Source: a virus
Direction: 5' to 3' (one strand)
Length of the DNA stretch: 42,717 bases
Virus record (IMG/VR): IMGVR_UViG_3300045988_152067
Span: 1 to 42,717 of that record
The notes below the pieces were generated by a model. That model worked only from the letters and a program-made list of their open reading frames with translations, was not told the origin of the DNA and searched no databases. Shown here piece by piece: positions 1 to 42,717 of this stretch (within the stretch, counting starts at the first letter, position 1; every line of letters begins with the position of its first letter). Made by a program: the position numbers and the translations under genes.

Positions 1-55
1 GCACCCAGAATAAATTAATTAACAAAAGCTCAAAATCTGATGATGAAAAAACTTA
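1..55. repeat. 55-bp terminal direct repeat, identical to 42663..42717 (end overlap of a circular molecule)
   Basis: Bases 1-55 (gcacccagaataaatt...gaaaaaactta) recur exactly at 42663-42717, giving a unit length of 42662 bp. Confidence 0.9.
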
Positions 56-1938: not shown

Positions 1939-2189
1939 TGGACAATTTTAAAACTTTTGATAATCCAGCAGATATGCTATTGGGTTTAGATGATAACAAA
2001 CTAGAACCTGAAGTAATAACAGATAAAAAAAATCTAAAAGAAATTCTTGATTATGAAAAACAAACAAAAAAGAAATTAATACTCATTGGTCCAAAATTAT
2101 TTGAAATCATAGAGAAAAAAGCTAAAATTGATGGTCGAAGCGTCAATAATTATATAGTTAACGCATTAAAAGAATATGTACTAAAATAA
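1938..2189 (+). CDS. Small ribbon-helix-helix partner of ParA (ParG/omega-like centromere-binding protein)
   Basis: 83 aa with a TAATG overlap with parA. The C-terminal KKLILIGPKLFEIIEKKAKIDGRSVNNYIVNALKEY fits a strand-helix-helix RHH pattern. Confidence 0.6.
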   Translation: MDNFKTFDNPADMLLGLDDNKLEPEVITDKKNLKEILDYEKQTKKKLILIGPKLFEIIEKKAKIDGRSVNNYIVNALKEYVLK

Positions 2190-2194
2190 TAAAA

Positions 2195-2233
2195 GAGCCT
2201 AGCACATAAATTAGTGTTAGGCTCTTATTTTTT
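2195..2233. terminator. Terminator between the convergent par operon and the 2309..2497 gene (mainly + strand)
   Basis: 11-bp stem gagcctagcac/gtgttaggctc followed by ttatttttt. An A-rich tract precedes the stem, so it is partly bidirectional. Confidence 0.75.
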
Positions 2234-2308
2234 ATCCATTTAGAGCTGTTTTATTTTTATCTTAATGTATTTATACCTACAAAGATTTTAAACAGCTTAT
2301 ACAGGCTA

Positions 2309-2497
2309 TTATTTTATAGCTTTTTGGCAATCTTTATACCAAAGGCACACATCTATATTACATTGTTTAGTTGCATAACAAGGATTATTTCCTTCTTGCT
2401 CCTGCAATATATGTATCATATCAGATTTTCTAGCTTTCTTTGGTAATTCTACAGCTCTATCTTTTGCTATAGATTTTATTTCTTTTACCGTTGGCAT
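2309..2497 (-). CDS. Small Rho_N/SAP-like protein with a C-terminal Cys motif
   Basis: 62 aa with GAAGGTGAG RBS. N-terminal VKEIKSIAKDRAVELPKKARKSDMIHILQ resembles the Rho N-terminal/SAP helix-hairpin. C-terminus is C-x6-C-x4-C-x5-C. Confidence 0.5.
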   Translation of the reverse strand: MPTVKEIKSIAKDRAVELPKKARKSDMIHILQEQEGNNPCYATKQCNIDVCLWYKDCQKAIK

Positions 2498-2876
2498 CTA
2501 CTCACCTTCTTTCTTGGTATATATAAATTTATTTAAAATAGGCACTAACTTTAGCTTTACTTCTAAATTAAAAAAGATTACGCTTGGGAGGATTGCGGAG
2601 CCGTGTTTTAGATATAGTTATACCTTTAGCGTTCTACTAAAGATATAACTATATTTTTACGCCTGGTTTTCTTGCGTCTGCCAGTCCAGTTTTCTACTAG
2701 TTCCTGCTTTTACACAGGTAGGATATTAATGGTTACTTAATTGCCCCAACCACTAGATGTTTCCATCTATTATCCCAATACGGCTTATAGCTTATTTATT
2801 TGCTACAATCCCAGTCTGCAACTTACGTTGCGTTTAACCACCGTTGTCTACTTTTAACCATATAATATAATTACTC

Positions 2877-2900
2877 AATAAAAAAGCCGTCTAAACGGCT
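2877..2900 (-). terminator. Internal intrinsic terminator within the non-coding region
   Basis: On the - strand, agccgt-ttag-acggct is followed by tttttatt. There is no T run on the + side. Confidence 0.5.
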
Positions 2901-3170
2901 CTAATGAGTTTTTATTTACTTAGGCTTATTAAGGGAGTTTAACAACATTCCGCCCTCTTAGGTAAATGCAAATAGTAGAATATATTTGCACGCCCCGCCG
3001 ATTTCCCTGCCTCCGCTGACGATACGGTGAATTACTTTCTGCAATCCTAGTTTATACACCTTGCCAAGTGTGGTTCCCCCTCCAAGAATAAGCATCTTGG
3101 CACGCTCCTGAAGTTTATTCCTTCAGGTGATTTTAGATATTAAAAAACACATCACAACATTTTTCATCAT

Positions 3171-3206
3171 TTTTCCCACATGGGAAAAATGGAATAATGC
3201 TATAAT
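3171..3206 (+). promoter_or_regulatory. 8-bp-arm palindrome (TTTTCCCA ca TGGGAAAA) followed by an extended -10 (TGcTATAAT)
   Basis: Palindrome at 3171-3188 is centred about 33 bp upstream of the predicted start. TGC at 3198-3200 and TATAAT at 3201-3206. Confidence 0.45.
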
Positions 3207-3250
3207 GTGCCTACTTAACCTACCTAAAATCATTTTTGTGATATCATATG

Positions 3251-3279
3251 TTGACATATCGCAAATACATAAGTATAAT
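3251..3279 (+). promoter_or_regulatory. Perfect consensus sigma-A promoter TTGACA-17-TATAAT
   Basis: TTGACA at 3251-3256, exactly 17 nt of spacer, TATAAT at 3274-3279. Confidence 0.8.
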
Positions 3280-3285
3280 GAGTTT

Positions 3286-3368
3286 AGAAAGTAACTCGGA
3301 CAACTTATTTGTGGTAGGTTGTTCGGCAAGACCAAACGTGTTGGTAGCACGATTGGTCTTTTTTATTT
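3286..3368 (+). ncRNA. About 80-nt antisense small RNA (countertranscript) with two stem-loops
   Basis: Starts about 7 nt after the consensus -10. Stem 3297-3304/3318-3325 contains a G-U valid only on the + strand. The terminator stem 3328-3340/3348-3360 is followed by TTTT. Both loops expose UGGUAG. Confidence 0.65.
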
Positions 3369-3409
3369 CTAAAAACTTTTTATTTAATTTTAAAATTATT
3401 TACACATCT

Positions 3410-3438
3410 ATATTATATTAAATTAGATTTATTGTCAA
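3410..3438 (-). promoter_or_regulatory. Promoter TTGACA-17-TAATAT reading into the non-coding region
   Basis: Reverse complement of 3433-3438 is TTGACA, the spacer is 17 nt, and the reverse complement of 3410-3415 is TAATAT. Confidence 0.65.
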
Positions 3439-3440
3439 TT

Positions 3441-3475
3441 AAAAAGGGCTGCTAAAGATAGCAGCTCTTTTTTTT
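3441..3475. terminator. Bidirectional terminator after the methyltransferase-like gene
   Basis: Stem gggctgct/agcagctc flanked by A5 and T8 runs. Confidence 0.75.
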
Positions 3476-4136
3476 ATATTCCAATTTTTATATTTACATT
3501 ATTATTAAATTTTTTTATTCGCTCTAGAAGAACCGCTAAACGTTTATAATTAAGTTCTGTACCAACAAATTTTTTATTGTTGATGTATGCATTATAGCCT
3601 ACTAAACCACGTCCCATACATAGATCACCTATACAATCATAATCTTCGTTGGAACATATCCATTTGATTATATCTTCTTCATCCATATAATCTAATTTTG
3701 GGGATCTTGCTTTATTAGCTCCTCGTACAACATAGCAAATTCTATCTTTATTATGATAATAACTACTGTTATAGAAGGTTACATATTTATATTTCTTCTT
3801 CATTTCCATTATAAATTCCGCCAGATATTGCTTTCCTATTTCAAGATAGCAAACCCTAGGATTTATATCATGAATGCACTCAAATAATCTTTTATAAAAG
3901 GCTTCATAATTAAAACAGATATGCTCTAAATCAGCCTTAGTATAAAAGGTATTTAAATTTCCCAAATTCCATGGTGAGTCTGTAAATATCATATCAGCAT
4001 TATGCATAAAATTGGGTAGCTGTTTAAAGATGTCATGCACCTTTAAAAAATTATTATCATCTACTGTGATAATAGAATTATTATTTATGTCAAAATCTTT
4101 ATAAGCACCGCCATAATCCCATTTACTCACCATCAA
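3474..4136 (-). CDS. Beta-class/MT-A70-like DNA methyltransferase-like protein with atypical motifs
   Basis: Motif IV-like ADMIFTDSPWNLG (DSPW rather than DPPY/W) precedes motif I-like GDLCMGRGLVG...FVGTELN. Motif IV before motif I is the beta-class order. Confidence 0.55.
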   Translation of the reverse strand: MMVSKWDYGGAYKDFDINNNSIITVDDNNFLKVHDIFKQLPNFMHNADMIFTDSPWNLGNLNTFYTKADLEHICFNYEAFYKRLFECIHDINPRVCYLEIGKQYLAEFIMEMKKKYKYVTFYNSSYYHNKDRICYVVRGANKARSPKLDYMDEEDIIKWICSNEDYDCIGDLCMGRGLVGYNAYINNKKFVGTELNYKRLAVLLERIKKFNNNVNIKIGI

Positions 4137-4659
4137 TCATCTCCCAACTTCTAGAATACTGTTGATTTTTAAATAGTTCTGCAATACCTGTAAGTTGTTT
4201 CAATCTGTGTACTTCTTCGATTTCCATACCTAGTTTTTTGGCAATTTCAATATCACTTACACCTTGTTCATGTAAAGCCCTTACTAAATCACTCATGCGT
4301 TCAGTTTGATGAACACCACGGGCTCTATTAAATTGAACAGTTGCTTCCATTCTTTTAGTTATACCATGATTTAAGACTATAATAGGGATTTCATCTGCTT
4401 CTAAATCTTTAAATTTGGTATATCTGTGGAATCCATCAATAATCACATATTTTTCTAAATCTGGATCCCAAATTGTAACTACTGCATAACAAAATCCATT
4501 TGACATAATTGACTCTTCAAGTAACTTCATATTATTTTTAGGCACTTCATTTGGATTATAATTATTAGCTTGTACTTTATCTATTGGTACAATTATTGGT
4601 GTCATGCATGGTAATTTAATTTCGCCTTTTTTAGTTTTTATTGTTTGTACTGTTTCCAT
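4123..4659 (-). CDS. ParB/Srx-domain protein (IbrB-like)
   Basis: IIDGFHRY (DGxHR ParB N-domain motif). The ATG at 4659 overlaps the upstream stop as TAATG and has a GGAG 8 nt upstream. The ORF track start at 4677 is also possible. Confidence 0.7.
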   Translation of the reverse strand: METVQTIKTKKGEIKLPCMTPIIVPIDKVQANNYNPNEVPKNNMKLLEESIMSNGFCYAVVTIWDPDLEKYVIIDGFHRYTKFKDLEADEIPIIVLNHGITKRMEATVQFNRARGVHQTERMSDLVRALHEQGVSDIEIAKKLGMEIEEVHRLKQLTGIAELFKNQQYSRSWEMIDGE

Positions 4660-5780
4660 TATAACAACTCCATCCATTTTTTTATTGTTGCTTCCCTTGG
4701 ATCAGGTTTATTATCTACTGGTAAATTATTTTCGTAATCATTCAATACTAGCTGTCGAACCTGCTGTCTAGCAACATAATTATTTTCTAAGTGTTTTGCA
4801 AACCTTTTCGCAAATATTTCTTTTTTCTCTTTATCTAGATATGTTTCTAATAGAAAATTTCTATAATCAATCCAGCTTTTAAAATTCTTCGGTAGCTTTC
4901 TACATTTCATTAATACATTATCTTTAGCGTATAGATTGGCTACACTAATTCCTTTTAATCTTTTAAGTAATTTATTGTAAGTTTTTGGTTCAAATTCTGG
5001 CAATTCTACAATAGCCTTAAAAGATTTTTCATGTATTAAACTAGATACTCTTATTTCTTGCAGTGGTATTCCTTTTTTCCACATCCAATCATATATCTTG
5101 TTATATCTAACCTTATTATCGTAGATATAACGCCATATATCAGAAAAATTCCAATCATATAGCGGATATGCTGTTATACAATTATTTTTTAATTTAGTAG
5201 TCCAATACCAATCTTTATGCCCAGGATTTTTTGAAACAGCTCGCCAACGATTAGGGCTTTCCGTAGCTCTTAATCCAACAAAGAAGCAAGTATCTTTTCT
5301 ATGACTTTGGAAATTATCTATAGCATCGTAAAATCCAAAGCCTTTAACTTTGTTTCTTACGGTTATAGTTTTTTTATCCCATGGTATATTTTGAATAGCT
5401 CTAGGATCTTTGGAACGCATCCAAATTTTATGCTTTCCTTTTTCCCAGCAGATGAGTTGGGACTCACTTAAACTGGTTGCATTAGTAAGATGAAAAGGTA
5501 TCTGATACCACAATGGAATACTATTTTTAGGGAACATATCAAACATGATATATTTAACCTGCTCAATAGTATTCTCATAATCCACCTCTTCATCTAAAAA
5601 GAAGATAGATGCTAACCTATTTCTTCTGTTAGCTTCTGACAACACTAGATGAGCTAATACTGTGCTATCTTTTCCGCCAGATATACTTACGCATACATTT
5701 TCAAAATCATCAAAGACTTTACTAATACGTTCTTTTGCAGATGTTAGCACATCTTTATTTATATAAATCTGCCTTAACAT
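4659..5780 (-). CDS. PAPS-reductase-fold PP-loop protein with a C-terminal extension (IbrA/DndC-like)
   Basis: PP-loop ISGGKDSTVL near the N-terminus. 373 aa. Paired with a ParB-domain gene, as in ibrA-ibrB. Confidence 0.7.
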   Translation of the reverse strand: MLRQIYINKDVLTSAKERISKVFDDFENVCVSISGGKDSTVLAHLVLSEANRRNRLASIFFLDEEVDYENTIEQVKYIMFDMFPKNSIPLWYQIPFHLTNATSLSESQLICWEKGKHKIWMRSKDPRAIQNIPWDKKTITVRNKVKGFGFYDAIDNFQSHRKDTCFFVGLRATESPNRWRAVSKNPGHKDWYWTTKLKNNCITAYPLYDWNFSDIWRYIYDNKVRYNKIYDWMWKKGIPLQEIRVSSLIHEKSFKAIVELPEFEPKTYNKLLKRLKGISVANLYAKDNVLMKCRKLPKNFKSWIDYRNFLLETYLDKEKKEIFAKRFAKHLENNYVARQQVRQLVLNDYENNLPVDNKPDPREATIKKWMELL

Positions 5781-8025
5781 AAAATTCCTCCAGTATTTTT
5801 ATCCATTCGGAATATTTATTGTAATACACATCATCAACCTTAAACCCAGAATGAATAAAGGTTAATTTTTGTATATTAGATTTTTTTACAAAATCATTAA
5901 ATATCATTTGTCTTATTGGAAAATCTACAATAAGACATTCCTGACTATTTATTACATCTTTGTAGGTTACTACATTTTCTTTTTTATACCTGTTAGTTCT
6001 AGCAACATAATATTTATCATCCGTTACTTTTTTTCTTTTCCCTGCAAACAAGTGCAGGTTTCTCGGAATAGTATTTGGATCTTTATTTCCTAAATTATCA
6101 AAAAGTTTTTCTTTTTCTTTTTCATATGCTAACAACTCTTTATCTGTAGGAGTAGCAGCATATCTTTTATCTAACTTAATATTTCTTTTTTTTACTCCAA
6201 TTGGATAATCTTTCAATAATTCATAATCAAAAGATTTATTTCTATATCTCCCATCATCAATAAAATCTAATAGAATCATGAAATCATTTAGATTATCAAT
6301 AATAGGGAAATACTCAAACACTAACTTATGGCTAGTTTGATGACAATAATGATGAGCACAATTATACGTTAAATCATTACGTTTTTTCACTCGCATACAT
6401 TCATCAAAAACTAGCAAATAATCATTATTTATCTTTTCTAGCAGTGGATAAAATGTACGATACATAATAATCTCACTATATTCAACAAACTCTGCATCAT
6501 ATTCTATTTTTTGCCATTTATCTGGATAAAATATGATTACATGTTTTATATTATTCTCTTTAACATAATTTTCAATTATAGTTTTTTTATCTGCATAACT
6601 ATAGCCGATATTTATTATGCCACTATTAAGATACATTTTTTTCATATCCTCCTCTTCAACAGTACGCCACCTATCTATTTCGTCTTTAAAAGACTTCAAT
6701 AGATTTTCTTTATTTATTAAACAATTTGCTATAAAAACATCTATGGTATATTTACAGCATATATCATAGATATTAACTATTTTTTCTTGCCCAATGCGGT
6801 GAATTCTATCTTCTGCCTGCAAGCGAGTTGCAAGGTCAAAATCGTTCGAGTAAAAAATTATGTTATGGCAAAATTGAAGATTTAACCCATAAGCACCACA
6901 TTGCTTATTGGCTAACATAAATTGAACATCATTTTTAAACTTTTCACGGTTCTCTTGTCTTTTCTTTTGACTTATTTTCCCTGTGAACTCAATATAATTT
7001 TTATTTTCACTTTGCAATAATAAAGCTATATCGTTTATTTCATCTTGGTATTTGGCAAAGATAATACATTTATCATTACCAATTTCTTCAAGGACTCTTT
7101 TTAAACATTGTATACGTGGATTATTTTCCCATGTATACATCTTTTCTGTACGCATCCGTTTTTCTGGTGCTGATAACACTCTCTTACCAGAAGTGATATG
7201 TTGCAATGCAGAAAAGAGTTTAAATATCGTTTCCGACCGCCAATCTACTACATTAAAAAGGAATAACTCTTTTGTTTCGTAATATTCCTCTTCTTGTAAA
7301 TCATCCAAACAAAAATATCGCATATGATATTCCTTTGGTTTAAGTTCTTTTAATACCTCATCTTTTTTTATTTGGTACATATATGGAGCTATCTTTTCTG
7401 TTAAATAGTCCACATTTAGAACTCTTATAATTTGGTCGGTCGTTATCTCTCTACCACTTGGAAGCCTTACTTTTTTATATTCCAAATGATTTGCAGCGAA
7501 ACTATAAAAAGACTTATATCCTAAAATCCGCCAATCTAAGATATACCATTGGGCGAATAAATCCGCCTCATTCTTAGATATTGGTGTACCATTTAATATC
7601 ATCTTGTATTTGCAAAAAGATGATATTGTTATTATTCTTTCCGTTCTTATAGCCAATTTATTTTTTACAAGGTTACTTTCATCAACAATCAGATAAACCT
7701 TATAATTTTTTACTAGCTCTAATAGCTGTAAATACAATCTGTCAGAACTAGACAAGCTTTCAATACCACGTATTATTATGTTGTTTTCCGTTGGTAAATC
7801 ACCTGTATGTTTTTCTATATCCTCTCTTAGATTGTTCTTTACTGAACATGGGCAAAGCCAAAGGATTACTTCAACTTTTCCTTTATCCAACTTCTTTCTA
7901 ACAATCTCTAAAGCTGTTCTTGTCTTTCCTGTGCCTTGCTCCATATACAAAGCACCAACTTTAAGCTTTGAAATCTTATCTACAGCTTTAGATTGATATT
8001 CATATAACTTTGTTTTCAAAATCAT
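5755..8025 (-). CDS. SNF2-family ATPase with an approximately 300-aa C-terminal domain of unknown function
   Basis: Walker A EQGTGKT, motif II LIVDESN, motif VI QAEDRIHRIGQ. I recognise no motif in residues from about 450 to 756. Confidence 0.85.
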   Translation of the reverse strand: MILKTKLYEYQSKAVDKISKLKVGALYMEQGTGKTRTALEIVRKKLDKGKVEVILWLCPCSVKNNLREDIEKHTGDLPTENNIIIRGIESLSSSDRLYLQLLELVKNYKVYLIVDESNLVKNKLAIRTERIITISSFCKYKMILNGTPISKNEADLFAQWYILDWRILGYKSFYSFAANHLEYKKVRLPSGREITTDQIIRVLNVDYLTEKIAPYMYQIKKDEVLKELKPKEYHMRYFCLDDLQEEEYYETKELFLFNVVDWRSETIFKLFSALQHITSGKRVLSAPEKRMRTEKMYTWENNPRIQCLKRVLEEIGNDKCIIFAKYQDEINDIALLLQSENKNYIEFTGKISQKKRQENREKFKNDVQFMLANKQCGAYGLNLQFCHNIIFYSNDFDLATRLQAEDRIHRIGQEKIVNIYDICCKYTIDVFIANCLINKENLLKSFKDEIDRWRTVEEEDMKKMYLNSGIINIGYSYADKKTIIENYVKENNIKHVIIFYPDKWQKIEYDAEFVEYSEIIMYRTFYPLLEKINNDYLLVFDECMRVKKRNDLTYNCAHHYCHQTSHKLVFEYFPIIDNLNDFMILLDFIDDGRYRNKSFDYELLKDYPIGVKKRNIKLDKRYAATPTDKELLAYEKEKEKLFDNLGNKDPNTIPRNLHLFAGKRKKVTDDKYYVARTNRYKKENVVTYKDVINSQECLIVDFPIRQMIFNDFVKKSNIQKLTFIHSGFKVDDVYYNKYSEWIKILEEFYVKADLYK

Positions 8026-10473: not shown

Positions 10474-10502
10474 ATTATACCCTCCTTGAGAGGGTATGTC
10501 AA
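10474..10502 (-). promoter_or_regulatory. Perfect consensus promoter TTGACA-17-TATAAT whose spacer is a 7-bp-arm palindrome
   Basis: Reverse complement reads TTGACA taccctctcaaggaggg TATAAT. taccctc/gagggta form the palindrome. Confidence 0.75.
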
Positions 10503-40167: not shown

Positions 40168-40511
40168 GCGATATCACTCTTTCTACCTGTCCTTGCATAA
40201 AATTTATACTCTGCAAGTTTCTGTATATATACCATGTCAGGATAATAAGCCTTTACTATCCCATAACTTAATTCAGTTCTTTTTGATATCTCCCTAAACT
40301 TACAAATAAAATCATTACCTCTTCTTATTTTTAATTTTCTCTGTTCTATTCTCTCCTTTCTCTTCTTTAAAAATTCTCTTAACATCTTATTTTTTCTCAA
40401 TCTCTTGCATTCACTTGAACAGCATTTAATACGTGAACTTGTTGTTTTAAATGTTGCACCGCAATATTCACATTTTTTCTCTATTATCTTGGGCTTATAC
40501 AATTTATTCAC
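40164..40511 (-). CDS. Zinc-ribbon basic protein
   Basis: CEYCG...CCSSEC followed by a Lys/Arg-rich helix. Confidence 0.45.
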   Translation of the reverse strand: MNKLYKPKIIEKKCEYCGATFKTTSSRIKCCSSECKRLRKNKMLREFLKKRKERIEQRKLKIRRGNDFICKFREISKRTELSYGIVKAYYPDMVYIQKLAEYKFYARTGRKSDIA

Positions 40512-41358
40512 CCCAATCTTCTATTACCTCTGGTACATCTATATTTTCCAAAGGCTTTCGATATTTGCTTTTCTTAAACTTCTGATACTGGCTATCTATT
40601 CTATACATGGTTATTCTTTGTACCCTGCAACATTCATAGTAACCGCCATTATCTGCCCAGCCATAGCCATCATAAATAGAGTTTTTATCTATGATGTAGC
40701 CTTTTGGGGCTTTTTTTGTTGCCATGTTCCACCATCTATTATTTTTTATAACTTTGGTGGTTACTAATGGCATTTTTAAATTTTTAGATGCACAAAATCT
40801 TTTCTTATGCACCTTTTCCTTTCTGTAGAATTGCTCCCTACTGTTTTTTATTAAGTAAGAAGCCAGCTTTTTATATTCCCCACTGTAATCTAAATGTCTT
40901 ATCGTTACTCTTGGGTATTTACATTCTTCTGTACCAACTATTCTTTGCCATGCTTTAGTTAGTACATCTGTATCGAGCTTGTTCATCACAATATGAAAGT
41001 GAATCATACCTTTTTTTGTGATACCAGCCACATAAATATACTTGAGCTTTTTTTCTTCTCGCTTGTATATTCTTCTTACTGTGTCCAAAAATGTATTTAT
41101 ATTTTTTCTGGCCACATCTATATCTACTTTTTGATGTGGTGGATAATTTAGCGTTAAGAATAAATCTCCACCTTCAAAATTTTCATTTAACTTATACCTA
41201 CAGATACGCTCTGCTTTTTTATCTTGATAGCGTAGCTGTTTTAATGGTGTCTTACCTAGTGCAGGGCCATTAGGTATATTCTTTCCATATCTACCACTAT
41301 AATATTGGTAGTAGTCTATATAATTTTTTCCATATACCTTTTTCTGCACTAGTGCCAT
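40504..41358 (-). CDS. rep: HUH-superfamily rolling-circle replication initiator (Rep)
   Basis: Motif 1 FLTLNY, motif 2 MIHFHIVMN (HUH), motif 3 KLASYLIKN (catalytic Tyr). AAGGAGG RBS. Confidence 0.8.
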   Translation of the reverse strand: MALVQKKVYGKNYIDYYQYYSGRYGKNIPNGPALGKTPLKQLRYQDKKAERICRYKLNENFEGGDLFLTLNYPPHQKVDIDVARKNINTFLDTVRRIYKREEKKLKYIYVAGITKKGMIHFHIVMNKLDTDVLTKAWQRIVGTEECKYPRVTIRHLDYSGEYKKLASYLIKNSREQFYRKEKVHKKRFCASKNLKMPLVTTKVIKNNRWWNMATKKAPKGYIIDKNSIYDGYGWADNGGYYECCRVQRITMYRIDSQYQKFKKSKYRKPLENIDVPEVIEDWGE

Positions 41359-41444
41359 ATTTCTAAGCCTCCTTGTTTTTATTTTCCTGTTAAAATAATA
41401 CCTTTAGCAGGTCCACAAAACGCTCCACCGAACGCTTAAAAAAA

Positions 41445-41473
41445 TTGACACCTAACCATTATTGATATATAAT
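41445..41473 (+). promoter_or_regulatory. Perfect consensus promoter TTGACA-17-TATAAT, antisense to the rep leader
   Basis: TTGACA at 41445-41450, 17-nt spacer, TATAAT at 41468-41473. Confidence 0.8.
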
Positions 41474-41479
41474 TTAATT

Positions 41480-41548
41480 AAACTTTATATGTGGTTAGTT
41501 TTAAGCCCTTAGGTTATTCGCAGTGACCTAAGGGCTTCGCCATTTTTT
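41480..41548 (+). ncRNA. About 70-nt countertranscript opposite the rep upstream region
   Basis: 11-bp stem 41503-41513/41527-41537 followed by cgcca and T6. Lies 120-190 nt upstream of the rep ATG on the opposite strand. Confidence 0.55.
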
Positions 41549-41600
41549 AAGCCAGTAGAACGTTTTGTGTTTCTACTTAACTATCTTTTCTATAAGAGCT

Positions 41601-41678
41601 GTTGACATACTCCCCATGCCTAAAGGCAGGGGATTCTTGGATACAAACGATACTTGCCTACTAAAATAGCAGGTCTTA
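41601..41678 (-). mobile_element. IS200/IS605-type right end / omega-RNA-like scaffold remnant
   Basis: Immediately 3' of the TnpB fragment. Contains an imperfect palindrome cccctgcc-ttta-ggca(t)gggg with a bulged T, typical of IS200/IS605 end hairpins. Confidence 0.55.
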
Positions 41679-41840
41679 CTATATCTCTCCAAAGAAGGTT
41701 GATGCCCCAACCTTCCATATATTTATAGCAGCATTTCTATCTCTATCGTGGCTGGTTTTGCACTTTGCGCAAATCCACTCACGAACTGCCAAATTTTTAG
41801 TTTCAGGATTTTTTGTACCACAAACATGGCAAAATGTGAA
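41679..41840 (-). pseudogene. tnpB: TnpB (IS605 OrfB family) C-terminal fragment
   Basis: The 53-codon frame [45 protein letters not shown] is the TnpB zinc-finger/RuvC-III end. An in-frame TAA lies directly upstream and there is no N-terminal part. Confidence 0.75.
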
Positions 41841-41907
41841 TTAATGTCTCTATTCTGGACTTTTAAAAATCTGTAATTCGTTAATATTTATCCCTCCCCT
41901 ATATTGA

Positions 41908-41997
41908 GCAGTACACACCCAGCAAGCCTTTTTAAATCATCTATAATCATTTACTTTTTAGAGGTCGTGGCAGTTTTGCTTACTGGGTTTGTACTGC
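41908..41997. repeat. Long inverted repeat (20-nt arms, 18/20 paired, 50-nt loop)
   Basis: gcagtacacacccagcaagc versus gcttactgggtttgtactgc. One mismatch becomes a G-U on the - strand. Confidence 0.8.
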
Positions 41998-42020
41998 CCA
42001 ATATTTTTATTAATTTAGCC

Positions 42021-42052
42021 ATAGTTATTAAAATACGTTATATAATAACTAT
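42021..42052. repeat. Inverted repeat with 10-bp arms
   Basis: atagttatta / taataactat around a 12-nt loop. Confidence 0.8.
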
Positions 42053-42073
42053 CGACAAAGTTTTCTTCATTTT

Positions 42074-42126
42074 GCAAGTAGATATATAACTCATCTCAAT
42101 CTCTATATATCTACTTGCATTTTTTA
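42074..42126 (+). terminator. 15-bp perfect hairpin followed by a T run on the + strand
   Basis: gcaagtagatatata / tatatatctacttgc with a 15-nt loop, followed by aTTTTTTa. Confidence 0.55.
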
Positions 42127-42144
42127 TGCTGTTTTTAAACCTCA

Positions 42145-42364: not shown

Positions 42365-42717
42365 ATGTTAAAGAGATTAAAACAAGCTAGAAAATCATTA
42401 GGATTAAACCAAAGTGATTTTGCTAAGTATCTTGGATTAACTCAAACGGGATACTCAATGATTGAAAATGGTAGAAATCCTTTATCAGAGAGACATATTA
42501 AAGTAATATGTAAAACATTTAACATTTCTGAGAATTGGCTACAAAATGGAAGAGGTTCTATGTTTTCATGTTCACCTTATGAAAAAGAATTAACTGAAAT
42601 TCTTAACTCACTTGAACCTGAAACACAAGAATATCTATTTAAAATGGCTAAAGAATTATTAAGCACCCAGAATAAATTAATTAACAAAAGCTCAAAATCT
42701 GATGATGAAAAAACTTA
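42365..42717 (+). CDS. XRE/cI-type repressor (117 aa); its stop codon is completed across the circular junction
   Basis: AAAGGAG RBS and HTH LGLNQSDFAKYLGLTQTGYSMIENGRN. The frame ends ...ACT TA at 42717, and base 56 (a) completes the TAA. Confidence 0.8.
   Translation, partial: MLKRLKQARKSLGLNQSDFAKYLGLTQTGYSMIENGRNPLSERHIKVICKTFNISENWLQNGRGSMFSCSPYEKELTEILNSLEPETQEYLFKMAKELLSTQNKLINKSSKSDDEKT
42663..42717. repeat. Second copy of the 55-bp end overlap
   Basis: Identical to 1-55. Confidence 0.9.

What the first reader, a model, noticed from the sequence alone, without database searches (positions are those of the whole stretch)
3171..3368. Consensus-promoter, two-hairpin small RNA antisense to the 5' end of the long non-coding transcript
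A textbook TTGACA-17-TATAAT promoter (3251-3279) sits on the otherwise almost silent + strand. It is followed about 80 nt later by a strong terminator (3328-3368).

The predicted RNA folds into two stem-loops. The first stem has a G-U pair that works only on the + strand. Both loops display the same UGGUAG sequence.

The RNA is fully complementary to roughly nt +36 to +116 of the - strand transcript that starts near 3402.

A second extended -10 promoter (3198-3206), preceded by an 8-bp-arm palindrome centred near -33, lies upstream in tandem.

This is the architecture of plasmid copy-number countertranscripts (ColE1 RNA I, R1 CopA, pIP501 RNA III), here in a phage-plasmid.
Basis: partly seen in the sequence, partly recalled or inferred. 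Interest (0 to 1): 0.7.

Follow-up and report, generated by a model that had tools for sequence, protein, structure and literature searches.

The report
Antisense small RNA in gut phage-plasmid
A real, conserved ~80-nt small RNA gene lies antisense to the start of a ~520-nt structured non-coding RNA in a family of human-gut phage-plasmids, and it most likely sets copy number and compatibility of a protein-free, RNA-based replicon, though that role is untested.

Summary
A perfect TTGACA-17-TATAAT promoter (3251-3279, +) is followed by two hairpins and a T-run (about 3286-3368).

I found 21 sequence variants in human-gut viral and metagenome contigs.
- The promoter hexamers never change, while the spacer does.
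- All 440 stem cells pair. There are 70 G-U cells and no A-C cells, so the structure belongs to the + strand RNA.
- The two loops are the hot spots of variation. Hairpin 2 occurs as exact reverse-complement "flips", which stay matched only to a cis-encoded target.

The target is real too. A conserved minus-strand promoter (3438-3410) drives a ~520-nt, ORF-free, highly structured RNA that ends at a conserved terminator (2902-2883).

These elements, a second structured stretch and a 62-aa HeH protein gene form one portable cassette (about 2300-3440). It lies beside parA/parG and the CI operon of a circular genome in which no integrase was found.

The shared UGGUAG loops are not conserved. The "second promoter" lies inside a 105-nt hairpin of the minus RNA and is co-deleted with its partner arm in relatives.

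Best reading: an RNA I/RNA II-type control module like ColE1, Vibrio MRB plasmids and mycobacteriophage RNA-based origins. The replicon role is inferred, not shown.

The parts
3251..3279 (+). Promoter of the small RNA: -35 TTGACA (3251-3256), 17-nt spacer, -10 TATAAT (3274-3279)
   Evidence: 12/12 match. Three perfect matches in the window against 0.02 expected. Both hexamers are invariant in 21 variants, while 12 of 17 spacer columns vary.
3286..3368 (+). Small RNA of about 80 nt (RNA I-like): 5' tail, hairpin 1, hairpin 2 acting as intrinsic terminator, U-run
   Evidence: Fold of -31 kcal/mol, z = -5.0. In 20 distinct rows, 100% of 440 stem cells pair, and 6 pairs show double-sided changes. 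No Rfam match.
3296..3326 (+). Hairpin 1. The 3' arm is invariant and G/U-rich. The 5' arm varies only by transitions that keep pairing through G-U. The apical loop is about 3306-3313.
   Evidence: Seven pairs vary on one side only and all stay paired. G-U cells are present and A-C cells absent, so the helix belongs to the + strand.
3328..3360 (+). Hairpin 2, the terminator stem, with a 7-nt hypervariable loop (3341-3347)
   Evidence: Six pairs carry compensatory double changes. There are 12 hairpin types and 8 loop sequences. Three pairs of types are exact reverse complements of the whole 29-nt hairpin. The loop has the highest entropy of the module.
3410..3438 (-). Promoter of the long minus-strand RNA: -35 TTGACA (3438-3433), 17 nt, -10 TAATAT (3415-3410). 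The start is near 3402.
   Evidence: The -35 is invariant, and the -10 reads TAATAT, TATTAT or TATCAT in relatives. Sequence conservation begins exactly at the -35 box, although the upstream flanks differ.
2883..3402 (-). Long structured non-coding RNA (RNA II-like, about 520 nt). The small RNA is complementary to about +37 to +117.
   Evidence: The alignment fold is -115 for the minus sense against -89 for the plus sense. There are many G-U pairs and almost no A-C pairs in the minus sense, with compensatory changes in several helices. No ORF is conserved across 23 sequences.
3128..3232 (-). 105-nt hairpin of the long RNA.
   Evidence: Fold of -46.2 kcal/mol, z = -10.4, against -26 on the + strand. 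Matching segments of both arms are deleted together in 5 of 18 sequences. In L043 one arm has been converted to the exact complement of the other.
2883..2902 (-). Intrinsic terminator that ends the long RNA
   Evidence: The stem and T-run are conserved, with sequence changes in the stem and loop, in all relatives including the 75%-identical L027.
2520..2882 (-). Second structured non-coding stretch ('region B') between the terminator and the small ORF. It includes an 18-bp hairpin at 2612-2654.
   Evidence: The alignment fold is -51.9 for the minus sense against -29.5 for the plus sense, with 151 G-U and 16 A-C cells. The outer 12-13 bp of the hairpin keep their sequence even in divergent L027.
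2309..2497 (-). 62-aa gene that closes the cassette: an N-terminal helix-extended-helix (HeH/LEM, Rho_N-like) domain plus four conserved cysteines
   Evidence: The ORF is intact with conservative changes in all relatives. Pfam Rho_N scores E = 4e-5. A source names it 'HeH/LEM domain protein'. The AlphaFold2 model shows N-terminal helices at pLDDT about 80. A 54%-identical homologue lies in a Megamonas plasmid.

Best explanation
The element is the small, negative-regulator half of an RNA I/RNA II-type pair.

A constitutive consensus promoter makes an ~80-nt two-hairpin RNA. This RNA is perfectly complementary to nt ~37-117 of a ~520-nt structured, protein-free RNA transcribed from a convergent promoter 116 bp away.

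Recognition most likely starts with loop-loop ('kissing') contacts. The two loops are the specificity determinants, and one of each complementary loop-2 pair keeps a 5' YUNR U-turn motif. Pairing then inactivates or destabilises the long RNA. Collision between the convergent promoters probably adds to the effect.

The pair belongs to a portable cassette: minus promoter, long RNA, terminator, second structured stretch, 62-aa HeH protein gene. The cassette lies next to the partition genes and the CI (lysogeny) operon of a circular prophage genome in which no integrase was found.

I think the long RNA most likely serves as the initiator or primer of a Rep-independent replicon for the plasmid prophage. 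The small RNA would then set copy number and incompatibility.

Shown by computation: both promoters, both terminators, the strand of each structure, conservation, loop hypervariability and hairpin flips, absence of ORFs, cassette limits and context.

Inferred: transcription in vivo, kissing, negative control and the replicon role.
For: - Promoter. It is perfect and far beyond chance. The hexamers are invariant and the spacer is variable.
- Structure. All 440 stem cells pair, with 6 compensatory pairs, 70 G-U cells and 0 A-C cells. This marks a + strand RNA, not a DNA palindrome or a minus-RNA feature.
- Long RNA. The minus promoter and terminator are conserved. The minus-sense fold is much better than the plus-sense fold, with strand-specific G-U pairs. 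No ORF is conserved.
- Loops. In five near-identical modules (1-6 differences over 536 nt), 4 of 7 variable sites fall in the 15 loop nucleotides and 6 of 7 fall within the small RNA.
- Flips. Three exact reverse-complement pairs of hairpin 2 exist. A flip keeps complementarity only with a cis-encoded antisense target, which rules out a mainly trans-acting role.
- Cassette. The limits are sharp and the flanks vary. The cassette is convergent with parG/parA of two different types.
- Genome. It is circular, and no integrase was found. The HUH-type Rep sits in the cro-side early operon, which CI should repress. A lysogenic plasmid would therefore need another replicon.
- G-rich tracts. The long RNA carries GGAGGGGGAA and GGCGGGGCG in a 27% GC genome.
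- Precedents with the same geometry. In MRB plasmids, RNA I is 68 nt with two stem-loops and a consensus promoter, RNA II is at least 465 nt and starts 37 nt beyond the RNA I end, and the loops set incompatibility (PMC3035462). In mycobacteriophage plasmid prophages, ~600-bp RNA-only origins lie next to parABS (PMC7157519).
Against: - No expression data and no replication test exist.
- The long RNA ends at a strong intrinsic terminator. ColE1 RNA II does not, and release of the transcript is awkward for R-loop priming.
- MFE folding with the target blocked shows no clear conserved refolding of the long RNA.
- One relative (L048) keeps the cassette but has lost parA. Some relatives also carry tyrosine recombinases. 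The link to plasmid life is therefore not absolute.
- The genome has a Rep gene with its own conserved antisense RNA, which could be the plasmid replicon instead.
- Loop hypervariability would fit immunity specificity as well as incompatibility.
- All relatives are at least 75% identical, so covariation depth is limited.
- The host is unknown. Two scans of species-representative genomes found nothing.
Confidence: 0.5

Rival explanations
1. Attenuation or immunity switch. The small RNA acts on the nascent minus transcript to decide whether it stops at the 2902-2883 terminator or reads through into region B and the 62-aa HeH gene, which might be an antirepressor or regulator. This would resemble Anti-Q/IRS1 of pCF10, c4 of P1/P7 or sar of P22. 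Loop variation would then give heteroimmunity rather than incompatibility.
For: - The cassette runs exactly from the minus promoter to the stop codon of the 62-aa ORF, which suggests one transcription unit.
- A conserved terminator sits between the target and the ORF.
- I saw no convincing separate promoter for the ORF by reading the sequence.
- Some relatives carry an extra ORF inserted after region B, as if it were a leader.
- The cassette abuts the CI operon.
- From my own knowledge, P1/P7 heteroimmunity rests on a few bases of an antisense RNA.
Against: - The terminator lies about 380 nt beyond the target.
- No antiterminator element complementary to either terminator arm is present upstream (reading).
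- About 900 nt of heavily structured, covarying RNA is far more than a leader for a 62-aa protein would need.
- A relative carries a conventional Bro-N antirepressor elsewhere.
Confidence: 0.25
2. The long RNA has some other RNA-level job, such as a decoy or anti-defence RNA, a scaffold, or a processing precursor. The small RNA merely tunes its abundance, with no link to replication or immunity.
For: - The RNA is large, conserved, structured and matches no Rfam family.
- Neighbouring genes include DNA-modification or anti-defence-like functions: a ParB-N/PAPS-reductase pair, an SNF2 helicase and a methyltransferase-like protein.
Against: - Such a role gives no reason for diversifying, self-specific loops.
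- The cassette is linked to par and CI rather than to the accessory genes, whose identity changes between relatives.
Confidence: 0.17
3. Type I toxin-antitoxin pair. The long transcript would encode a small toxic peptide and the small RNA would be the antitoxin, giving post-segregational killing.
For: An abundant small RNA antisense to the 5' region of a longer RNA on a plasmid-like element is the usual layout. The Megamonas plasmid with the closest ParA carries an Fst toxin gene.
Against: - No ATG-started ORF of at least 15 aa is conserved across the 23 sequences.
- Indels that are not multiples of three run through the candidate ORFs.
- The only real ORF is hydrophilic and DNA-binding-like, and lies about 900 nt from the target.
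Confidence: 0.03
4. No small RNA exists. The hairpins are features of the minus RNA or DNA palindromes, and the promoter match is fortuitous.
For: Hairpin 2 is nearly symmetric and would also fold in the minus RNA.
Against: - The perfect promoter has 0.02 expected matches and invariant hexamers around a variable spacer.
- The T-run lies only on the + side.
- 70 G-U cells against 0 A-C cells means hairpin 1 does not hold together on the minus strand.
Confidence: 0.03

Closest known systems
MRB (marine RNA-based) plasmid replicons of Vibrionaceae, e.g. pB1067 (Le Roux, Davis and Waldor 2011, PMC3035462)
   Same: - A small RNA I of 68 nt with a consensus promoter, two stem-loops, a 3' tail and a terminator.
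- A long RNA II (at least 465 nt) from the opposite strand that starts about 37 nt beyond the end of RNA I.
- No Rep ORF in the origin.
- The RNA I region is the best-conserved part.
- The loops determine incompatibility, and related replicons diverge there.
   Different: - No sequence or Rfam relationship.
- The present element is in a low-GC human-gut phage genome, not a Vibrio plasmid.
- The long RNA ends at a strong intrinsic terminator and is followed by a second structured stretch and a small HeH protein gene.
- Specificity changes by whole-hairpin inversion.
- Replication function is untested.
ColE1 replicon (RNA II primer, RNA I, Rom)
   Same: - A primer-size RNA of about 500-550 nt.
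- A short countertranscript to its 5' end with specificity in the loops.
- A ~60-aa accessory protein gene downstream (Rom 63 aa, here 62 aa).
- G-rich tracts in the long RNA.
   Different: - RNA I of ColE1 has three stem-loops and covers +2 to +110.
- ColE1 has no terminator at the origin.
- Rom is a four-helix bundle, whereas this protein is HeH plus Cys.
- The family is enterobacterial.
- RNase H/Pol I priming is not testable here.
RNA-based (non-RepA) origins of extrachromosomal mycobacteriophage prophages (Wetzel et al. 2020, PMC7157519)
   Same: A protein-free, transcribed ~600-bp region next to the partition genes of a plasmid prophage. In those phages the region is necessary and sufficient for replication.
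   Different: - Actinobacterial and high-GC, with no sequence similarity expected.
- A word search of that paper's text turned up no antisense regulator RNA.
- There the RNA is upstream of and divergent from parA. Here the cassette is downstream and convergent.
Rep-leader countertranscripts: R1 CopA/CopT, pIP501 RNA III, pT181 RNA I
   Same: A two-hairpin antisense RNA from a strong constitutive promoter, loop-loop recognition and convergent promoters.
   Different: Those act on the leader of a rep mRNA, blocking translation or inducing an attenuator a few tens of nt downstream. Here no rep ORF and no nearby attenuator follow the target.
pCF10 prgQ/Anti-Q and the P1/P7 c4 and P22 sar immunity RNAs
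   Same: Convergent promoters, a small antisense RNA, a conserved terminator several hundred nt downstream of the long RNA's start, and specificity differing by a few bases between relatives.
   Different: No peptide or antirepressor ORF lies close to the target, and no antiterminator alternative is visible. The c4 RNA is not cis-antisense.

Membership tests
cis-encoded antisense RNA regulator (generic) | Own promoter and terminator on the strand opposite a transcribed target, giving full complementarity | tested here: met
   Both promoters and the + terminator are present and conserved. The overlap is 3286-3366.
cis-encoded antisense RNA regulator (generic) | Conserved stem-loop structure on the antisense strand, with recognition loops | tested here: met
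   100% of stem cells pair, 6 pairs are compensatory, and the G-U bias is strand-specific. One of each complementary loop-2 pair starts with YUNR.
cis-encoded antisense RNA regulator (generic) | Both RNAs are actually made, and the small one represses the long one | not testable with these tools
   No transcriptome or genetics is available.
Rep-independent RNA I/RNA II replicon (ColE1 / MRB kind) | The origin region lacks any initiator protein gene | tested here: met
   No ORF is conserved in 2883-3402. The only cassette ORF is a 62-aa HeH protein.
Rep-independent RNA I/RNA II replicon (ColE1 / MRB kind) | A long RNA (about 450-550 nt) whose 5' ~100 nt is covered by the small RNA | tested here: met
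   About 520 nt from promoter to terminator. The small RNA covers about +37 to +117.
Rep-independent RNA I/RNA II replicon (ColE1 / MRB kind) | Small-RNA loops are the incompatibility determinant and diverge between related replicons | tested here: inconclusive
   Differences concentrate strongly in the loops, and hairpin flips occur. Incompatibility itself was not measured, and immunity specificity would look the same.
Rep-independent RNA I/RNA II replicon (ColE1 / MRB kind) | The region alone supports autonomous replication, and the long RNA primes DNA synthesis | not testable with these tools
   Needs cloning into a non-replicating vector and mapping of RNA-DNA junctions.
ColE1 family proper | Homology of RNA I/RNA II (three-loop RNA I, Rfam RNAI) and a Rom four-helix protein | tested here: not met
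   No Rfam hit even at E up to 10. The small RNA has two loops. The 62-aa protein is HeH-like.
Rep-leader countertranscripts (R1 CopA, pIP501 RNA III, pT181 RNA I) | The target lies in the leader of a rep mRNA, with an RBS, leader peptide or attenuator immediately downstream | tested here: not met
   No rep ORF lies downstream. The first terminator is about 380 nt away. The Rep gene is at 40504-41358.
Type I toxin-antitoxin | A conserved small (usually hydrophobic) toxin ORF in the long RNA | tested here: not met
Phage-plasmid | A phage structural and lysogeny gene set plus plasmid partition genes, a circular genome and no integrase | tested here: met
   Terminase, baseplate and tail genes. 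ParA plus an RHH partner. A 55-nt terminal overlap. No integrase hit in the ORFs tested, and no similarity to the relatives' integrases. Not every ORF was scanned.

The most novel reading that the evidence does not exclude
Human-gut phage-plasmids, possibly of Negativicutes or other low-GC Bacillota, maintain themselves with a previously undescribed protein-free RNA replicon. Its copy-number RNA changes specificity by flipping entire hairpins as well as by point mutation. This mechanism would instantly create a new, self-compatible incompatibility type, because a cis-antisense pair survives inversion.
Probability: 0.4. Interest if true: 0.8.

Novelty: new variant of a known kind. Interest (0 to 1): 0.6.

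Why it matters
Rep-independent, RNA-only replicons have been described in only three settings: ColE1 in enterobacteria, MRB plasmids in vibrios, and non-RepA mycobacteriophage prophages.

A fourth, unrelated example in gut phage-plasmids would show that this solution evolves repeatedly. It would also give a compact (~1.1 kb) replicon-plus-control cassette for genetically difficult gut anaerobes.

Whatever the long RNA does, the data give a clean natural example of diversifying selection on antisense-RNA loops. They also point to hairpin inversion as a way to change RNA-RNA specificity, which I have not seen described. Both are directly testable with loop swaps.

Tried and rejected
- Rfam. The gathering threshold on the whole window and E up to 10 on 2150-3520 gave only noise.
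- DNA similarity to deposited phages and plasmids. Nothing matched except a 155-nt hit in a Megamonas plasmid, which turned out to be a homologue of the 62-aa gene.
- Two scans of species-representative genomes found no host.
- Phages related through the neighbouring 220-aa protein (L001-L013) have no DNA similarity to the module. A covariance model of the small RNA finds nothing in them. Their gene order is different, with terminase next door, so they give no cassette-swap comparison.
- DnaA boxes occur at the chance level and none lies in the module. No iterons were found.
- I looked for a refolding switch in which CCUACC of the target competes with GGUAGG at the base of the 105-nt hairpin. 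MFE folding with and without the target blocked keeps the hairpin in both states.
- A long-range pairing 3327-3313/3011-2997 predicted by alifold is lost in L027 and shows no double-sided changes.
- I searched for an antiterminator for the 2902-2883 terminator and found none.
- Small contigs carrying the module (L038, L043) show no terminal overlap, so there is no evidence of mini-plasmids.
- GC skew is dominated by gene orientation and cannot locate an origin.
- The IMG/VR source 3300045988 holds five contigs with five different loop-2 sequences. At least one of them appears to be the same contig as a separate ENA assembly, so I did not treat this as co-occurrence in one sample.

Full report
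**What is at the coordinates**

The + strand carries TTGACA (3251-3256), a 17-nt spacer and TATAAT (3274-3279), a 12/12 match. Perfect matches to this pattern occur three times in the 42.7-kb window, against 0.02 expected from shuffles.

From the likely start at 3286, the sequence folds into two hairpins (3296-3326 and 3328-3360), followed by TTTTTTATTT. The energy is -31 kcal/mol with z = -5.0. The reverse strand reaches only -20.3 kcal/mol.

A second good promoter on the minus strand (TTGACA 3438-3433, 17 nt, TAATAT 3415-3410) points towards it. The two transcripts therefore converge. The small RNA is complementary to about +37 to +117 of the minus transcript.

**Genomic setting**

- The window has a 55-nt terminal overlap, so it is a complete circular assembly.
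- It encodes terminase, baseplate and P2-like tail proteins.
- A CI-like HTH gene spans the junction.
- ParA and an RHH partner lie at 1165-2189.
- An HUH-type Rep (REP_ORF2-G2P, 40504-41358) sits in the cro-side early operon.
- No integrase was found among the ORFs tested, and the window has no similarity to the integrases of relatives.

The window is therefore a phage-plasmid. Deposited phages show no DNA similarity to the non-coding region, and deposited plasmids only one short 155-nt hit. The closest ParA (52%) is on a Megamonas funiformis plasmid. All related contigs come from human-gut metagenomes and viromes.

**Comparative evidence for the small RNA**

Searches seeded by proteins and by DNA patterns yielded 21 distinct versions of the promoter plus small RNA.

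- Both hexamers are invariant, while 12 of 17 spacer columns vary.
- On the two-hairpin structure, 100% of 440 cells form standard pairs. Six pairs in hairpin 2 show double-sided compensatory changes. Sliding the partners by one to three columns drops pairing to 26-43%.
- Seventy cells are G-U and none is A-C. On the minus strand those 70 cells would be C-A mismatches, so selection acts on the + strand RNA. The T-run is also only on the + side.
- A pattern that did not include the hairpins recovered the same set. The invariance of the 3' arm of hairpin 1 is therefore not an ascertainment artefact.

**The loops are where the variation sits**

Hairpin 2 exists in 12 forms with 8 loop sequences: TTGGTAG, CTGGTAA, CTACCAA, TTACCAG, TTGCCAG, CTGCCAA, CGCCAA and CTGCTAA. 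Three pairs of forms are exact reverse complements of the entire 29-nt hairpin, including the window against L015/L022.

In each form, one of the two complementary loops begins with a YUNR motif.

Among five modules that differ at only 1-6 of about 536 positions, 4 of the 7 variable sites fall in the 15 loop nucleotides, and 6 of 7 fall within the small RNA.

An inversion keeps the small RNA matched only to a target encoded on the opposite strand of the same DNA. The loops' partner must therefore be the cis-antisense RNA. The pattern is what is expected of a self/non-self specificity determinant.

**The long RNA**

Conservation begins exactly at the -35 box of the minus promoter and ends just after the stop codon of a 62-aa ORF (2309-2497). 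The flanks on both sides differ between contigs. The cassette is therefore about 2300-3440.

- From about 3402 to a conserved intrinsic terminator at 2902-2883, the minus strand has no conserved ORF.
- It folds far better than the plus strand in the alignment, -115 against -89.
- It shows compensatory changes and many G-U but almost no A-C pairs in the minus sense.
- It contains a 105-nt hairpin (3128-3232), at -46.2 kcal/mol and z = -10.4 against -26 for the + strand.

In 5 of 18 distinct sequences the -10 segment and the matching segment of the other arm are deleted together. In L043 one arm has been converted to the perfect complement of the other. I therefore do not accept the tandem promoter.

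Beyond the terminator lies another minus-sense structured stretch, with an alignment fold of -51.9 against -29.5. It includes an 18-bp hairpin (2612-2654) whose outer part keeps its sequence even in the 75%-identical relative L027.

The 62-aa gene follows. It is intact in all relatives and is HeH/LEM or Rho_N-like with four conserved cysteines. A 54% homologue sits next to a resolvase gene in the Megamonas plasmid.

**What it most likely does**

In my judgement, the small RNA is very likely a cis-antisense regulator of the long RNA with loop-based specificity. What the long RNA does is inferred.

Points in favour of an RNA-based, Rep-independent replicon with the small RNA as copy-number and incompatibility controller:

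- The cassette is self-contained and protein-poor.
- It lies beside the partition genes and the lysogeny operon.
- The only Rep is in the early operon that CI should shut off. A plasmid prophage therefore needs another origin.
- The long RNA has conspicuous G-rich tracts in an AT-rich genome.
- The geometry is nearly identical to the MRB plasmids. There RNA I is 68 nt with two stem-loops and a consensus promoter, RNA II is at least 465 nt and starts 37 nt beyond the RNA I end, and the loops set incompatibility.
- Mycobacteriophage plasmid prophages use RNA-only origins next to parABS.

Points against:

- The long RNA ends at a strong terminator.
- No conserved refolding switch was found.
- One relative (L048) keeps the cassette but has lost parA.
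- Some relatives also have tyrosine recombinases.
- Rep has its own conserved antisense RNA and might be the plasmid replicon.

The main rival is an attenuation or immunity switch that controls readthrough of the 2902-2883 terminator into the 62-aa gene, as in pCF10 Anti-Q or P1 c4. The exact cassette limits fit this rival. It lacks any visible antiterminator, and it does not explain about 900 nt of covarying structure.

A type I toxin-antitoxin pair is excluded by the absence of a conserved peptide ORF.

**Comparison with known systems and novelty**

The element works like RNA I of ColE1 or MRB plasmids, but it is not a member of either family. There is no Rfam hit. The small RNA has two loops rather than three. 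The protein is HeH-like rather than Rom-like. The host range is different.

It fails the defining feature of R1 CopA, pIP501 RNA III and pT181 RNA I, which is a rep leader with a nearby translational or attenuator target.

I rate it a new variant of a known kind. The new elements are:

- its setting in gut phage-plasmids;
- the terminator-bounded long RNA, with a second structured stretch and an HeH protein gene;
- specificity change by hairpin inversion.

Interest is moderate to high, 0.6. The small RNA is solid, but the replicon role is unproven.

Noticed in passing
window 41445-41548 (+): A second small RNA gene. It has a perfect TTGACA-17-TATAAT promoter (41445-41473), then a 16-bp hairpin (41503-41537) and a T-run, giving about 65-70 nt. 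It lies 120-190 nt upstream of the Rep gene on the opposite strand, so it is antisense to any early-operon transcript entering rep. It is conserved in L015/L023, L025, L048 and L027, with compensatory changes and an apparent flip of the hairpin top. It may be a classical rep countertranscript.
   Followed up: partly
window 10474-10502 (-): The third perfect TTGACA-17-TATAAT promoter. Its spacer holds a palindrome, CCCTCTCAAGGAGGG, which may be an operator.
   Followed up: no
window 41679-41792 (-), within the non-coding stretch 41360-42140: A C-terminal remnant of a TnpB/Cas12f-like protein (Cas12f1-like TNB domain, E = 8e-8). It is probably a decayed IS200/605-type element, possibly with leftover guide-RNA scaffold nearby.
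   Followed up: partly
window 1-55 and 42663-42717; CI-like gene from 42366 across the junction: A 55-nt terminal direct overlap shows that the window is a complete circular assembly of about 42.66 kb. A CI-like HTH repressor gene spans the junction and heads the operon that contains the 228-aa protein gene, parA and parG.
   Followed up: yes
L048 8001-9500: A close relative with the same backbone and the same RNA cassette, but parA is missing and apparently only a stub of parG is left beside the shared bidirectional terminator.
   Followed up: partly
L029, L030, L033, L035, L036 (about 470 nt between region B and the 62-aa gene): An extra 119-127-aa ORF with its own ribosome-binding site is inserted between the structured region B and the 62-aa gene, as if cargo can be added to the minus-strand unit.
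   Followed up: no
L043 (equivalent of window 3150-3205): One arm of the 105-nt hairpin has been replaced by the exact complement of the other arm, which turns G-U pairs into Watson-Crick pairs. It looks like intra-hairpin template switching, the same kind of event that would flip hairpin 2.
   Followed up: partly
L047 5915-6767 (Megamonas funiformis plasmid NZ_CP048628.1): A 69-aa homologue (54% identity) of the 62-aa HeH/Cys protein lies immediately downstream of a serine recombinase gene. The same plasmid has the closest ParA (52%). This hints at a Negativicutes host and at a DNA-level role for the small protein.
   Followed up: partly
window 3474-8025 (-): Upstream of the cassette lies a block of DNA-modification or anti-defence-like genes: a 220-aa protein with a DSPW motif (methyltransferase-like), a ParB-N protein, a PAPS reductase with DUF3440, and an SNF2 helicase.
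   Followed up: no
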